This document shows, one piece after another, positions 1,599 to 3,023 of a stretch of DNA of 5,401 nt. The position numbers and the translations under genes were made by a program. The DNA lies in the NCBI GenBank assembly GCA_001192655.1, contig BBVC01000107.1:1-5401 (forward strand), in the 5' to 3' direction. The stretch comes from Caedimonas varicaedens. GTDB taxonomy: Bacteria; Pseudomonadota; Alphaproteobacteria; Caedimonadales; Caedimonadaceae. Under the pieces are notes generated by a model. The model was not told where the DNA came from, searched no databases, and saw nothing but the letters and a program-made list of their open reading frames with translations. The stretch's first letter is position 1. Each line of letters starts with the position of its first letter.

Positions 1599-3023
1599 TT
1601 ATGGATTGATGCTACTTGCAAACGCAAGCAAATCTGCAACACAGTTTTGACCTTGAGTAAAGACTCTTTCTGATCCCCAGTTTGTTCCAATAAGTCTACA
1701 ACGTCTATCATTTGCATTACTATAAGTTTGTAAAATAATACCACCACTAATTCCAGGATAAGTTGGATAACATAAACCTTTTCTTCTTCTTACCGTTGTT
1801 GATCCTGTTGTTTGTATCTGATTTACGAGTGGACTGACGACTTTATAATCGACTCTCATAAACTGAGATGGATTTGAGGTATAAGTATTATCTAAATTGA
1901 TTCCAACAGCAAAACCACTTGGATTAAACTGCAATCGAGAGTCACCAGGTCTTCCTATGATAGAATAATACCTTAAATGTGTGTCATTCCATCCCAAATG
2001 ATTTTGAAAAGTATTATTAAATATCTGATCATAATTAACATTAACACCTAAGAATTGTGGTAAATTGTTGCCATTTGTGTCCAAATTTGGGAAAAGATCA
2101 GCTCCTCCTGGAACAATACCTGCAATAGAATTCCGCTGCCGATACGCAAAGGCTTCTCTAAGAGTACGACGATTTCCCCCTATTGCCGGCACACCGAGAG
2201 CCGTTACGCTAATAACAGCACAAGCGTAGTCTGAATTCTGATATCCATAAGCTGGATTCTTGTTCCTTTGTATGTCACTTAAAGGATCATTATTATTATC
2301 AGCGCCTGCGACACTGCAATGCACTCTTTGTACTTGAAAAGCATTTGCGTCTATAAGATCAAGTCCATAAGGAATAAAATAATAGTTATTTAATGGCAAT
2401 ATATTGTTGTCTGCTGTTTTTATTCCAAATCCATGTGTACATGTATGAACTTTCAGTCCGTTAGGAACTACAGCCACATGATCGGTACCATCATAACGCT
2501 TGCCTGGGATCAACATACCGCTAAAACAAGCACGATGTGCATTATTTGTTGTAGCATTTTTTAGGGTAAAGGTGCCACATAAAGATAAAGCTTTAACAAG
2601 ATCGTCATTTGCAAATTCTGCATGGTCAATCATTGCTTGACCATTGCTAAACTCATTCCGGATACTCATGAGTTCTCTTACACTTAAGCAGCGTAATTGG
2701 GTAACAATATCAGTATCATTAGAGATTCCCATAAATACATCTCTATGCGTAAATGGATTTTGTGTGCGATCTACCAGATTCCAAAAATCAGTTCCATTAG
2801 TATGTGACACTCCCAACAATACTTGAGCAATCGCACTCAAACGATCTCGTACTGCAATGTTTTCTCTTGTAGTTGAAAAACGATTATAATGATTGTTTAT
2901 CGTATCAATAAGATATTGCTGAGCTGTCTGATTTGCTATTGTTGCATCATCAACTCTTCTCCAAGAACGATTTTGAATTGCTTCTATTTTCGTCCATTGA
3001 TCTGTAGCAGATATTACAGCCAT
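1599..3023 (-). CDS. hypothetical 474-aa protein; C-terminal region carries chymotrypsin/trypsin-fold serine-peptidase-like motifs; N-terminal half unknown
   Basis: This is the longest ORF in the window. A 475-codon open frame in stop-rich, roughly 30-35% GC DNA is very unlikely to arise by chance. The ATG at 3023 is preceded by GAGGGAG 10 nt upstream. There is no N-terminal signal peptide (MAVISATDQWTKIEAIQNRSWRR). Motifs read from the translation are V-H235-C236, G424-I-S426-G-G (nt 1740..1754, verified as GGA ATT AGT GGT GGT) and L444-I-G-T-N-W449-G-S. They resemble the S1-family AAHC, GDSGG and IVSWGS motifs, and the HtrA-type GNSGG...LIGIN pattern. The peptidase assignment is inference from motifs only. 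Confidence 0.85.
   Translation of the reverse strand: MAVISATDQWTKIEAIQNRSWRRVDDATIANQTAQQYLIDTINNHYNRFSTTRENIAVRDRLSAIAQVLLGVSHTNGTDFWNLVDRTQNPFTHRDVFMGISNDTDIVTQLRCLSVRELMSIRNEFSNGQAMIDHAEFANDDLVKALSLCGTFTLKNATTNNAHRACFSGMLIPGKRYDGTDHVAVVPNGLKVHTCTHGFGIKTADNNILPLNNYYFIPYGLDLIDANAFQVQRVHCSVAGADNNNDPLSDIQRNKNPAYGYQNSDYACAVISVTALGVPAIGGNRRTLREAFAYRQRNSIAGIVPGGADLFPNLDTNGNNLPQFLGVNVNYDQIFNNTFQNHLGWNDTHLRYYSIIGRPGDSRLQFNPSGFAVGINLDNTYTSNPSQFMRVDYKVVSPLVNQIQTTGSTTVRRRKGLCYPTYPGISGGIILQTYSNANDRRCRLIGTNWGSERVFTQGQNCVADLLAFASSINP

What the first reader, a model, noticed from the sequence alone, without database searches (positions are those of the whole stretch)
1599..2336. Orphan 474-aa protein with a cryptic trypsin-like serine peptidase signature in its C-terminal half
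I read V-H235-C, G-I-S426-G-G and, 17 residues later, L-I-G-T-N-W-G-S. This is the same order and similar spacing as the S1 AAHC / GDSGG / IVSWGS motifs and the HtrA GNSGG...LIGIN pattern. The Cys residues (C418, C442, C461) are placed roughly like S1 disulfide positions. The protein nevertheless has no signal peptide, and about 230 N-terminal residues of unknown function precede this region. A cytoplasmic protease effector fused to an unknown, possibly sensor, domain and carried on a phage moron would fit an abortive-infection or defence effector. It could also be a delivered toxin. The catalytic Asp is not confidently placed: D347 in WNDTHL is one candidate, and the His-Asp-Ser spacing is atypical.
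Basis: partly seen in the sequence, partly recalled or inferred. Interest (0 to 1): 0.8.

Follow-up and report, generated by a model that had tools for sequence, protein, structure and literature searches.

The report
Divergent serine protease with small partner
The 474-residue protein is a very divergent trypsin-type serine protease, paired with a small exported partner protein; the pair travels on mobile DNA among bacteria living inside protists, and here it sits in a prophage of the Paramecium "killer" symbiont Caedimonas varicaedens.

Summary
The core idea, a cryptic trypsin-like serine peptidase, holds. An AlphaFold model (pLDDT 84, pTM 0.89) matches only chymotrypsin-fold proteases in the PDB: V8 protease, DegS, HtrA1, granzyme M and 3C.

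Three details need correcting.
- The protein is not an orphan. An exhaustive HMMER search found 41 further cluster representatives. All named sources are Holosporales endosymbionts of protists.
- The family-invariant triad is H197 (VHTCxHGF), D265 (xDYA) and S426 (PGMSGG).
- The protease domain starts near residue 140, after a conserved helical N-domain.

Most relatives carry a Sec-type signal peptide. This copy and three others lack it.

In 14 of 17 loci a conserved small gene with a signal peptide follows immediately (here 1110-1541). These loci often lie on plasmid, conjugative or transposon-flanked DNA. Here the pair is a low-GC insert behind a terminase and a methylase gene.

Nothing supports an anti-phage defence role. 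The most likely function is a mobile host-interaction protease with a cognate inhibitor or chaperone. The triad geometry, the enzymatic activity and the partner's role remain untested.

The parts
1599..3023 (-). Gene for the 474-aa protease-like protein (Cva_01629 of Caedimonas varicaedens)
   Evidence: ORF. Identity to the NCBI protein. Family of 42 cluster representatives. AF2 model with pLDDT 84.3 and pTM 0.89.
2619..3023 (-). N-terminal, mostly helical domain (about residues 1-135) with a conserved SW(R/K) motif. In most relatives a signal peptide precedes it; this copy has none.
   Evidence: Secondary structure (helices 6-18, 34-48, 52-72, 106-124). Alignment. Signal-peptide count.
1602..2606 (-). 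Chymotrypsin-fold catalytic domain (about residues 140-474). It has six strands in each barrel and an insert of about 80 residues between the barrels.
   Evidence: All top Foldseek PDB hits are PA-clan proteases, with target-normalised TM 0.5-0.57. BFVD hits are 3C/trypsin-like viral proteases. Strand order.
2433..2435 (-). Codon of H197 (in VHTCTH-GF), the proposed catalytic His
   Evidence: It is the only invariant His in the family, 39/39. It lies in a helical turn right after strand 190-195, as His57 does. Coordinates.
2229..2231 (-). Codon of D265 (in SDYA), the proposed catalytic Asp
   Evidence: Invariant in 38/38. It immediately precedes strand 266-271. hhalign pairs it with DegS D126. 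Pfam Trypsin_2 matches in P0016 and P0009 start exactly at this Asp.
1746..1748 (-). Codon of S426 (in PGISGG), the proposed nucleophile
   Evidence: Invariant in 39/39, flanked by G424 and G427. Aligned to the DegS GNSGG S201.
1671..1694 (-). LIGTNWGS strand (W449-G450 conserved), the likely counterpart of S1 residues 214-216
   Evidence: W in 29 and G in 38 of about 39 sequences. It lies within strand 440-455 of the model.
1110..1541 (-). Partner gene (Cva_01628, 143 aa). It has a hydrophobic N-terminus and a conserved C-terminal domain of about 75 aa. It starts 57 nt after the protease stop and has its own AAGGA ribosome-binding site.
   Evidence: Alignments. Profile hits immediately downstream of the protease gene in 14 of 17 loci. 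Sequence.
3242..3270 (-). Sigma-70-like promoter match upstream of the protease gene
   Evidence: Consensus scan (9 of 12 matches). This is weak evidence on its own.
3369..3401 (-). 14-bp stem terminator-like hairpin followed by a T-run. It lies downstream of the methylase gene and separates the phage genes from the protease unit.
   Evidence: inverted repeat I12.
3610..4569 (-). C5 cytosine DNA methyltransferase (context)
   Evidence: Pfam DNA_methylase 3.4e-79. phrog_116.
4571..5401 (-). C-terminal part of a phage terminase large subunit, running off the contig end (context)
   Evidence: phrog_38 at 2.9e-46. Pfam Terminase_6C.

Best explanation
Cva_01629 belongs to an uncharacterised, very divergent family of chymotrypsin-fold (PA-clan) serine endopeptidases.

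**Architecture.** A helical N-terminal domain of about 135 residues packs onto a double beta-barrel catalytic domain. The family-invariant triad is H197 (VHTCxHGF), D265 (xDYA) and S426 (PGMSGG). G424 would contribute to the oxyanion hole, and the (T/V)xWG strand would bind the substrate backbone.

**Two-gene module.** The protease gene is followed by a gene for a small protein of about 125-157 aa that carries a signal peptide. I infer that this partner is a cognate inhibitor, immunity protein or folding helper that keeps the protease in check or makes it competent.

**Distribution.** The module is mobile cargo in obligate intracellular Holosporales symbionts of protists (Caedimonas, Odyssella, and Holosporaceae and Paracaedibacteraceae MAGs). 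It occurs on plasmid-like, conjugative and transposon-flanked DNA. Here it is a low-GC insert, probably with its own promoter, lying behind the terminase and methylase genes of a prophage.

**Likely role.** In most members both proteins are Sec-exported. That points to a secreted host-interaction or virulence-type protease rather than an intracellular defence effector. The Caedimonas copy and three relatives have lost exactly the signal peptide. This copy therefore either stays in the bacterial cytoplasm until the cell lyses or leaves by another route.

**Shown:** family membership, fold class, the invariant residues and their local structural context, conserved synteny with the partner, and the mobile contexts.

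**Inferred:** catalytic activity, triad geometry, the partner's role and the target.
For: **Family**
- 42 cluster representatives.
- Named members are all Holosporales.

**Fold**
- The AF2 model has pLDDT 84.3 and pTM 0.89.
- The Foldseek PDB top 50 hits are all PA-clan proteases. They include V8 protease at 5e-5, TMPRSS11D, granzyme M, tPA, DegS, HtrA1 and polio 3C.
- BFVD hits are viral 3C/trypsin-like proteases.

**Triad**
- H197 is present in 39/39, D265 in 38/38 and S426 in 39/39 sequences.
- The strand order is b1 149-155, b2 163-171, b3 190-195, then His, b4 214-218, b5 229-236, then Asp, b6 266-271, then GxSGG and strand 429-435. This reproduces the canonical positions of His57, Asp102 and Ser195.
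- Sub-threshold Trypsin_2 matches run from the family Asp to the Ser motif.
- hhalign pairs D265 and S426 with DegS D126 and S201.

**Partner**
- A homologous small ORF lies directly downstream in 14 of 17 distinct loci.

**Export**
- 25-27 of 31 N-terminally complete members have a hydrophobic N-terminus, and the partners do too.

**Mobility**
- Rep3, primase and resolvase.
- Resolvases and an IS element.
- MobA/TraI.
- TraG/TrwB.
- RPA and HicB.
- Terminase and methylase in this window.
- GC of 30-38% across the module against about 50% in the flanks and 42.1% for the genome.
Against: - No sequence model reaches significance. Pfam, NCBIfam, PHROGs and a PDB sequence search all return nothing for this protein. 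Trypsin_2 matches are below the gathering score. hhalign to DegS/DegQ gives E of only 0.1-0.2.
- hhalign places H235, not H197, on the DegS His.
- The Asp-Ser spacing of 161 residues and the His-Asp spacing of 68 are far longer than in known S1 enzymes.
- The partner model is unreliable (pLDDT 48), so nothing shows that it is an inhibitor.
- In the four members without a signal peptide, the protease and the exported partner would sit in different compartments. That fits a simple inhibitor model poorly.
- The family was not found in phage, plasmid or IMG/VR collections. The 'mobile cargo' claim therefore rests on neighbouring genes in metagenomic contigs.
Confidence: 0.6

Rival explanations
1. 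Killer-trait toxin and antidote. The prophage-borne protease, which lacks a signal peptide, would be the still unidentified protein toxin that R-body-bearing Caedimonas ('kappa') delivers into sensitive Paramecium. The small partner would be the antidote or immunity factor.
For: - The source organism is the kappa killer symbiont.
- Reviews state that the toxin is probably a protein and is unidentified. [quoted passage not shown]
- The module sits directly after the phage terminase and methylase genes.
- This copy lacks the signal peptide that most relatives have. That would keep the protein inside the cell until it lyses in a food vacuole.
- The two-gene enzyme-plus-partner layout is conserved.
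Against: - The same module occurs in symbionts that are not known killers, such as Odyssella in Acanthamoeba and other MAGs. Those copies mostly have signal peptides and lie in non-phage contexts.
- No reb gene and no other killer determinant is on this 5.4-kb contig.
- There are no expression or localisation data.
- A terminator separates the module from the phage late genes.
Confidence: 0.06
2. Anti-phage defence or abortive-infection effector. A cytoplasmic protease fused to an N-terminal sensor domain is carried as a prophage moron and kills the infected cell.
For: - This copy has no signal peptide.
- It lies in a prophage cargo position next to a DNA methyltransferase.
- It has an N-terminal domain of unknown function.
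Against: - There are no PADLOC hits for the protease, the partner or the neighbouring ORF.
- Most family members have signal peptides, and so do the partners.
- No NTPase, STAND, TPR or nuclease companion is conserved. The only conserved neighbour is the small exported protein.
- The hosts are obligate intracellular symbionts with little exposure to phages (inference).
Confidence: 0.06
3. Housekeeping envelope quality-control protease of the HtrA/DegS type. It would degrade misfolded periplasmic proteins, with the partner acting as a regulator.
For: - DegS and HtrA1 are among the structural matches.
- Trypsin_2-type motifs are present (FSGML, GMSGG, IGxxWG).
- Most members have signal peptides.
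Against: - There is no PDZ domain and no Pfam hit of any kind.
- The genes occur in multiple copies flanked by mobile elements, and one copy has decayed to a pseudogene while its partner survives.
- Distribution is patchy and restricted to a few endosymbiont lineages.
- The composition is that of a foreign low-GC island.
Confidence: 0.1
4. Phage morphogenetic (prohead maturation) protease, encoded between the packaging and head genes.
For: The gene lies downstream of the terminase large subunit on the same strand.
Against: - There is no PHROG match and no tblastn match in 50,697 phage records or in IMG/VR.
- Relatives lie in chromosomal and plasmid contexts and carry signal peptides.
- From general knowledge, known prohead proteases belong to the S14/ClpP, HK97 or assemblin-like families, not to the chymotrypsin fold.
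- A terminator and a drop in GC separate the gene from the phage genes.
Confidence: 0.02
5. Catalytically dead protease-fold protein (a pseudo-enzyme) used as a binding module, or a decaying pseudogene copy in Caedimonas.
For: - The signal peptide has been lost.
- An in-frame upstream ORF is cut off from the gene by a TGA codon.
- The assembly was made from 454 reads.
- Other copies are split or decayed (L001 and L010).
Against: - All three triad residues, the oxyanion Gly and the WG strand are intact in this copy and invariant across the family.
- The ORF is full length with a good ribosome-binding site.
- Three other members start at the same point without a signal peptide, so this N-terminus is a shared variant rather than a one-off truncation.
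Confidence: 0.08

Closest known systems
S1B glutamyl endopeptidase group (Staphylococcus aureus V8 protease, PDB 1qy6)
   Same: - It is the best structural match (Foldseek E 5e-5, target-normalised TM 0.57).
- It is a secreted bacterial double beta-barrel serine protease with the His-Asp-Ser order and a GxSGG nucleophile motif.
   Different: - Sequence identity is about 11%, and no sequence-level match was found.
- This family has an extra helical N-domain of about 135 aa and an inter-barrel insert of about 80 aa.
- The His motif is HTCxH rather than the usual motif.
- The Asp-Ser spacing is 161 residues.
- It has a conserved downstream partner gene.
HtrA/DegS/DegQ family (MEROPS S1C; Pfam Trypsin_2 plus PDZ)
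   Same: - Many DegS and HtrA1 chains are among the fold matches.
- There are motif-level parallels: FSGML resembles GSGVI, DYA resembles DLAVL, GMSGG resembles GNSGG, and IGTNWG resembles LIGIN.
- Trypsin_2 is the only Pfam family that any member touches.
- Most members are exported.
   Different: - There is no PDZ domain.
- Trypsin_2 scores (13-17 bits) are below the 27.6-bit cut-off.
- hhalign gives E of only 0.1-0.2.
- The genes are mobile, multi-copy and patchily distributed, not a core housekeeping gene.
Protease-plus-cognate-inhibitor operons (for example staphopain/staphostatin, or periplasmic ecotin against trypsin-fold proteases). Cited from general knowledge as an analogy only.
   Same: - A small protein gene lies immediately downstream of a secreted protease gene, and the pairing is conserved across loci.
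- The partner's size (about 125-157 aa with a signal peptide) is in the range of ecotin.
   Different: - The partner gives no Pfam, NCBIfam or PADLOC hit, to ecotin or to anything else.
- The partner's fold could not be modelled (pLDDT 48).
- Binding or inhibition is untested.
- In four loci the protease lacks a signal peptide while the partner keeps one.
Viral 3C / 3C-like and sobemo-like chymotrypsin-fold proteases
   Same: Same fold class. These proteases dominate the BFVD matches and also appear in the PDB list.
   Different: They are polyprotein-embedded enzymes of eukaryotic RNA viruses, often with a Cys nucleophile. There is no sequence similarity and no shared context.

Membership tests
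PA clan / chymotrypsin-fold serine peptidases (MEROPS S1-like) | Two six-stranded beta-barrels, with structural matches to solved members | tested here: met
   The AF2 model has pLDDT 84.3 and pTM 0.89, with 6+6 strands over residues 149-471. All top Foldseek PDB hits are PA-clan proteases with probability about 1.0 and target-normalised TM 0.5-0.57. BFVD hits agree.
PA clan / chymotrypsin-fold serine peptidases (MEROPS S1-like) | Catalytic residues in the order His, Asp, Ser. His follows strand 3, Asp precedes strand 6, and Ser lies in GxSGG before a strand of barrel 2. | tested here: met
   H197, D265 and S426 are invariant. Their positions relative to the predicted strands match the canonical layout. 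D265 and S426 align to DegS D126 and S201.
PA clan / chymotrypsin-fold serine peptidases (MEROPS S1-like) | Triad side chains within hydrogen-bonding distance in three dimensions | not testable with these tools
   The model's coordinates are not exposed; /data holds FASTA files only. No distances could be measured.
PA clan / chymotrypsin-fold serine peptidases (MEROPS S1-like) | Proteolytic activity that depends on the Ser nucleophile | not testable with these tools
   This needs biochemistry.
Pfam Trypsin (PF00089) / Trypsin_2 (PF13365) sequence families | A score at or above the Pfam gathering threshold | tested here: not met
   The window protein gives 0 hits at E<=1. Five of 42 relatives give Trypsin_2 matches, best E 0.0064. 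The three looked at individually score 13-17 bits against a cut-off of 27.6. A family profile search against PDB sequences returned nothing.
   H235/C236, C418 and C461 are not conserved. The only conserved cysteines are C195, two residues before the His, and C442. Their pairing was not tested.
HtrA family (S1C) | One or more C-terminal PDZ domains after the protease domain | tested here: not met
   The protein ends 48 residues after S426. No PDZ hit occurs in any of the 42 members.
Known anti-phage defence systems (PADLOC-DB v2) | A match of the protein or its neighbours to a defence-system model | tested here: not met
   No hits at E<=1 for the protease, the partner, the 119-aa ORF or homologue P0002.
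Prophage 'moron' (autonomous cargo unit in a phage genome) | Located among phage genes, with its own promoter and terminator and a deviating base composition | tested here: inconclusive
   The terminase and methylase genes lie immediately upstream. A strong terminator-like hairpin at 3369-3401 and a weak promoter-like site at 3242-3270 lie between them and the module. GC is 30-38% against about 50% in the flanks. However, the contig is only 5.4 kb, the ORF running off the left end has no recognisable phage function, and the promoter match is weak.
Two-gene enzyme/cognate-partner (toxin-immunity or protease-inhibitor) module | Conserved adjacency of the two genes across divergent loci | tested here: met
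   A partner homologue lies directly downstream in 14 of 17 distinct loci. In L010 the partner survives next to a decayed protease gene.
Two-gene enzyme/cognate-partner (toxin-immunity or protease-inhibitor) module | Physical binding of the partner to the enzyme, with neutralisation of its activity | not testable with these tools
   The partner model is too poor (pLDDT 48). No complex prediction or assay was available.

The most novel reading that the evidence does not exclude
Cva_01629 and Cva_01628 would be the long-sought protein toxin and antidote of the Paramecium killer trait. The protease is encoded in prophage cargo and lacks a signal peptide. It would accumulate in R-body-forming ('bright') Caedimonas cells, and would be released into the cytoplasm of sensitive paramecia when the R-body ruptures the food vacuole. 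The small partner would protect the carrier. More generally, the family would be a mobile protease effector module, not previously described, that Holosporales use against their protist hosts.
Probability: 0.06. Interest if true: 0.85.

Novelty: new variant of a known kind. Interest (0 to 1): 0.5.

Why it matters
If the reading is right, this defines a protease family that Pfam, NCBIfam, PHROGs and PADLOC all miss. It comes with testable catalytic residues (H197, D265, S426) and an obligate-looking small partner, and it spreads on mobile DNA among bacteria that live inside amoebae and ciliates.

Secreted or released proteases are classic host-manipulation tools, and effectors of Holosporales are almost unknown.

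The copy in Caedimonas lies in prophage DNA of the classic 'kappa' killer symbiont. The toxin and antidote of that symbiont have not been conclusively identified, and reviews suspect they are phage- or plasmid-encoded (PMC11909080, PMC3583457). That makes this copy a concrete, cheap-to-test candidate, although the prior probability is low.

For annotation, the practical result is a corrected triad, a corrected domain boundary and a new gene pair.

Tried and rejected
**Searches that found nothing**
- Direct family searches for the window protein. Pfam, PHROGs, PADLOC, NCBIfam and PDB phmmer all returned nothing. A family-profile hmmsearch against PDB sequences also returned nothing.
- The word-indexed protein search found only one remote relative. 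It failed again with the family profile. The exhaustive search was needed to find the family.
- Megablast of the whole window against phage and E. coli collections.
- tblastn of the protease against phage and plasmid collections.
- A pattern scan of IMG/VR.
- A literature search for Holosporales plus trypsin-like: zero papers.
- A scan for repeats bounding the low-GC insert found only short matches that could arise by chance.

**Weak or unusable results**
- hhalign of the family against a DegS/DegQ mini-profile was weak (E 0.1-0.2). It supports the Asp and Ser equivalences. It put P0001's non-conserved H235 on the DegS His. I rejected that register because the column is not His in the family and because it would leave the N-barrel with too few strands after the His.
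- The partner structure prediction gave pLDDT 48, so no fold search was run on it.

**Ideas tested and dropped**
- I considered that the in-frame upstream 63-aa ORF, which has a signal-peptide-like start, is a severed leader of the protease. It has no similarity to family N-termini, and the annotated ATG has its own ribosome-binding site. The question stays open.
- I guessed that the ORF running off the left end is a phage portal gene. PHROGs, Pfam and tblastn do not support this.
- The 466-aa gene upstream of P0004 in L006 is not a paralogue of the protease.
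Full report
**Source and layout**

The window is a complete 5,401-bp contig of Caedimonas (formerly Caedibacter) varicaedens, the 'kappa' killer endosymbiont of Paramecium biaurelia. The 474-aa ORF is Cva_01629 and its downstream neighbour is Cva_01628. The draft genome was assembled from 454 reads into 142 contigs and has 42.1% G+C (PMC4645214).

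All the larger genes lie on the minus strand. In order they are:
- the C-terminal part of a terminase large subunit (4571 to beyond 5401; phrog_38 at 2.9e-46);
- a C5 DNA methyltransferase (3610-4569; Pfam 3.4e-79);
- a spacer of about 585 bp;
- the 474-aa ORF (1599-3023);
- a 143-aa ORF (1110-1541);
- a 119-aa acidic ORF (569-928);
- the start of an ORF that runs off the left end (1-447).

The spacer holds a 14-bp-stem terminator-like hairpin at 3369-3401 and a weak promoter-like site at 3242-3270. G+C falls from about 50% over the terminase and methylase genes to 30-38% between roughly 1000 and 3500.

**Checking the observation**

- VHC at residues 234-236;
- GISGG at 424-428;
- LIGTNWGS at 444-451;
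- WNDTHL at 345-350;
- Cys at 418, 442 and 461.

Window position 2336 is residue 230. No curated library recognises the protein. Pfam, PHROGs, PADLOC, NCBIfam and PDB sequence searches all returned nothing.

The protein is not an orphan, however. The word-indexed search found only one distant relative, from a Holosporaceae MAG. The exhaustive HMMER search found 42 cluster representatives at E<=1e-3, seven of them below 1e-30.

**Which residues matter**

In the 42-sequence alignment the near-invariant positions are G150, G169, H197, F216, P218, D265, G357, G424, S426, G427 and G450.
- H197 is present in 39/39 aligned sequences, within V-H-T-C-x-H-G-F.
- D265 is present in 38/38, within x-D-Y-A.
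- S426 is present in 39/39, within P-G-M-S-G-G.
- D347 is Asp in only 11 sequences.
- C418 and C461 are not conserved.
- C195 (36/39) and C442 (35/40) are the two conserved cysteines.

H197 is the only His that the whole family shares.

**Fold**

AlphaFold2 with the family alignment gave a confident model, with mean pLDDT 84.3 and pTM 0.89. Foldseek against the PDB returned only chymotrypsin-fold proteases: V8 protease 1qy6 (E 5e-5, target-normalised TM 0.57), TMPRSS11D, granzyme M, tPA, many DegS and HtrA1 chains, chymase, trypsin and poliovirus 3C. Against BFVD the matches were RNA-virus polyproteins that carry 3C-like or trypsin-like proteases.

The alignments span about 330-350 columns. 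That corresponds to residues of about 140-474, not 230-474.

The predicted strand order is b1 149-155, b2 163-171, b3 190-195, b4 214-218, b5 229-236 and b6 266-271.
- H197 sits in a short helical turn right after b3, as His57 does.
- D265 immediately precedes b6, as Asp102 does.
- GISGG is in coil just before strand 429-435, as Ser195 is.
- W449-G450 lie in the following long strand, as Trp215-Gly216 do.

**Support at the sequence level**

This support is weak but consistent.
- Five of 42 members give sub-threshold Trypsin_2 matches.
- In P0016 and P0009 those matches start exactly at the family Asp and run through GMSGG.
- hhalign against E. coli DegS/DegQ pairs D265 with D126 and S426 with S201, with E of only 0.1-0.2.
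- That same alignment puts P0001's H235 on the DegS His. I reject this register. The column is not His in the family, and it would leave only one strand between His and Asp.

I could not measure the triad geometry, because model coordinates are not exposed. The fold class and residue equivalences are therefore well supported. Catalytic competence is inferred.

**N-terminus and export**

Residues 1 to about 135 form a helical domain with conserved motifs: SW(R/K), PRxW and RExxRF. The high pTM suggests that this domain packs against the barrels.

Of the 31 members that retain this N-terminal region, 25 pass a crude hydrophobicity test for a signal peptide and two more are borderline. Four lack it: P0001, P0004, P0008 and P0034. 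In these four the SW motif sits about 20 residues closer to the start, so exactly the leader is missing.

Immediately upstream of the window ORF, in the same frame, lies a 63-aa ORF (3039-3230). It has a signal-peptide-like start and is separated from the ATG by one TGA codon and five further codons. It shows no similarity to family N-termini. The annotated ATG has its own GAGGGAG ribosome-binding site. I leave this as an unexplained curiosity.

**A conserved partner**

The 143-aa ORF downstream (1110-1541) has homologues directly downstream of the protease gene in most loci examined. The window pair was compared with relatives in these sources:
- a 169-kb endosymbiont-like contig (L002);
- a plasmid-like contig (L004/L005);
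- L006;
- both Odyssella thessalonicensis paralogues (L007, L008);
- a Paracaedibacteraceae MAG (L011);
- L013, which carries three tandem copies;
- L016, L017, L019, L020 and L022;
- L010, where the protease gene has decayed but the partner is intact.

In total 14 of 17 distinct loci have the partner. The three without a clear one are L001, L015 and L014 (weak match only).

The partners are 115-157 aa long. Most have a hydrophobic N-terminus; P0050, which is N-terminally incomplete, and the window copy score lower. Their conserved C-terminal domain of about 75 aa has the pattern NxKxY...H(I/V)...K(I/V)xG(F/Y)...(P/A)FLGxNAK and usually ends at the C-terminus.

The partner's structure could not be modelled (pLDDT 48), and no library recognises it. 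Its role as inhibitor, immunity protein or chaperone is an inference from the gene arrangement alone. In all four loci where the protease lacks a signal peptide, the partner still has a hydrophobic N-terminus. A simple 'same-compartment inhibitor' model does not explain this.

**Genomic contexts**

The named sources are all Holosporales: Caedimonas, a Holosporaceae MAG, Odyssella (two copies) and a Paracaedibacteraceae MAG.

The neighbouring genes are often those of mobile elements:
- Rep3, primase, UvrD helicase and resolvase;
- resolvases and IS transposases;
- a MobA/TraI relaxase;
- TraG and TrwB conjugation genes with methylases;
- plasmid RPA and HicB;
- YoeB/Phd.

Other copies sit among housekeeping genes. 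The family was not found in 50,697 phage records, in PLSDB plasmids or in IMG/VR. The phage association therefore looks particular to the Caedimonas copy.

**Interpretation**

The best-supported reading is a new, highly divergent family of PA-clan serine endopeptidases with triad H197/D265/S426. It is encoded with a small exported partner as a mobile two-gene module in protist endosymbionts. In Caedimonas it is carried as low-GC cargo behind the terminase and methylase genes of a prophage.

A secreted host-interaction role is the most economical functional guess. The basis is the signal peptides, the mobility and the lifestyle of the hosts.

There are no PADLOC hits and no conserved defence-type companions.

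A prohead-protease role is excluded by the family's non-phage distribution and its fold class.

An HtrA-like housekeeping role is unlikely, because there is no PDZ domain and the genes are mobile, multi-copy and sometimes decaying.

**The intriguing minority reading**

Reviews state that the killer toxin of Caedimonas is probably a protein that has not been conclusively identified. [quoted passage not shown] Earlier work proposed that R-bodies may deliver species-specific toxins, and even a protease in Kordia (PMC3583457).

A protease without a signal peptide, paired with a partner gene in prophage DNA of the kappa symbiont, fits that description superficially. Against it, the same module occurs in symbionts that are not known killers, and no reb gene lies on this contig. 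I put this reading at about 6%.

**Verdict**

The fold and the Ser are right. The His, the Asp, the disulfides, the domain boundary, the orphan status and the defence role are wrong.

I rate it a new variant of a known kind, of moderate interest. What raises the interest is the conserved partner, the restriction to protist endosymbionts and the killer-symbiont prophage context.

Noticed in passing
window 3039-3230 (-): A 63-aa ORF with a signal-peptide-like start (MKLTLSSIFLVGNLVRFVLA...) lies in the same frame as the protease ORF. One TGA codon and five further codons separate it from the protease ATG. It could be a severed leader, a small separate gene or chance. It has no similarity to family N-termini.
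   Followed up: partly
window about 1000-3500 compared with the flanks: A low-GC island (30-38%) covers the protease and partner genes. It lies between phage genes of about 50% GC. The genome average is 42.1%, so both the phage genes and the cargo deviate from the host, in opposite directions.
   Followed up: partly
window 3369-3401 (-): A 14-bp-stem hairpin followed by a T-run lies about 210 nt downstream of the methylase stop. It overlaps the short 47-aa (+) and 44-aa (-) ORFs at 3264-3407. It is the strongest terminator-like site in the window.
   Followed up: no
window 1-447 (-): This is the start of an ORF that runs off the left contig end. It is an acidic N-terminus of 149 aa (MPPRPSLLPEDLDD...). 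PHROGs, Pfam and phage tblastn give no hit. My guess that it is a portal gene is unsupported.
   Followed up: partly
window 569-928 (-): A 119-aa acidic ORF lies downstream of the partner gene. No library recognises it, and it is unclear whether it belongs to the cargo or to the phage.
   Followed up: partly
window 1110-1140 (-): The Caedimonas partner ends ...PFFKEDLL instead of the family's ...FLGENAK. The end lies right after a run of seven T in a 454-based assembly, so a homopolymer error or genuine divergence of the C-terminal tail are both possible.
   Followed up: no
L001 9647-9955 and 10001-11020: The gene of the Holosporaceae MAG homologue P0002 is split. The upstream 102-aa ORF carries the signal peptide and the SW motif and hits the protease profile at 2.5e-11. 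It is a pseudogene or an assembly frameshift. No partner homologue is detectable downstream.
   Followed up: partly
L010 5557-5885 and 6001-6348: Only decayed fragments of the protease gene remain upstream of an intact partner gene (P0050) on a 477-kb contig. The partner has outlived the protease there.
   Followed up: partly
L013 6317-7621 (same contig as L018): Three tandem partner-like ORFs follow one protease gene.
   Followed up: no
L002 12319-21422: The 169-kb contig carrying homologue P0007 has several housekeeping genes called in pieces (DnaB, alanine racemase, LpxI). This is typical of a degrading endosymbiont genome or of frameshift-prone assembly.
   Followed up: no
L007 and L008 (Ca. 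Odyssella thessalonicensis scaffold NZ_AEWF01000005.1): Two protease-partner modules lie about 17 kb apart on the same scaffold in opposite orientation. Each is flanked by resolvase/invertase genes and IS-type transposase fragments. One copy (L007) appears N-terminally truncated by the ORF listing, but the open frame extends to 5707.
   Followed up: partly
P0022 (604 aa, from a 2-kb metagenomic contig): This family member has an N-terminal stretch matching the Trp/Tyr permease family (Pfam 4.2e-14). It is probably a gene-call fusion or a truncated neighbouring gene rather than a real domain fusion.
   Followed up: no
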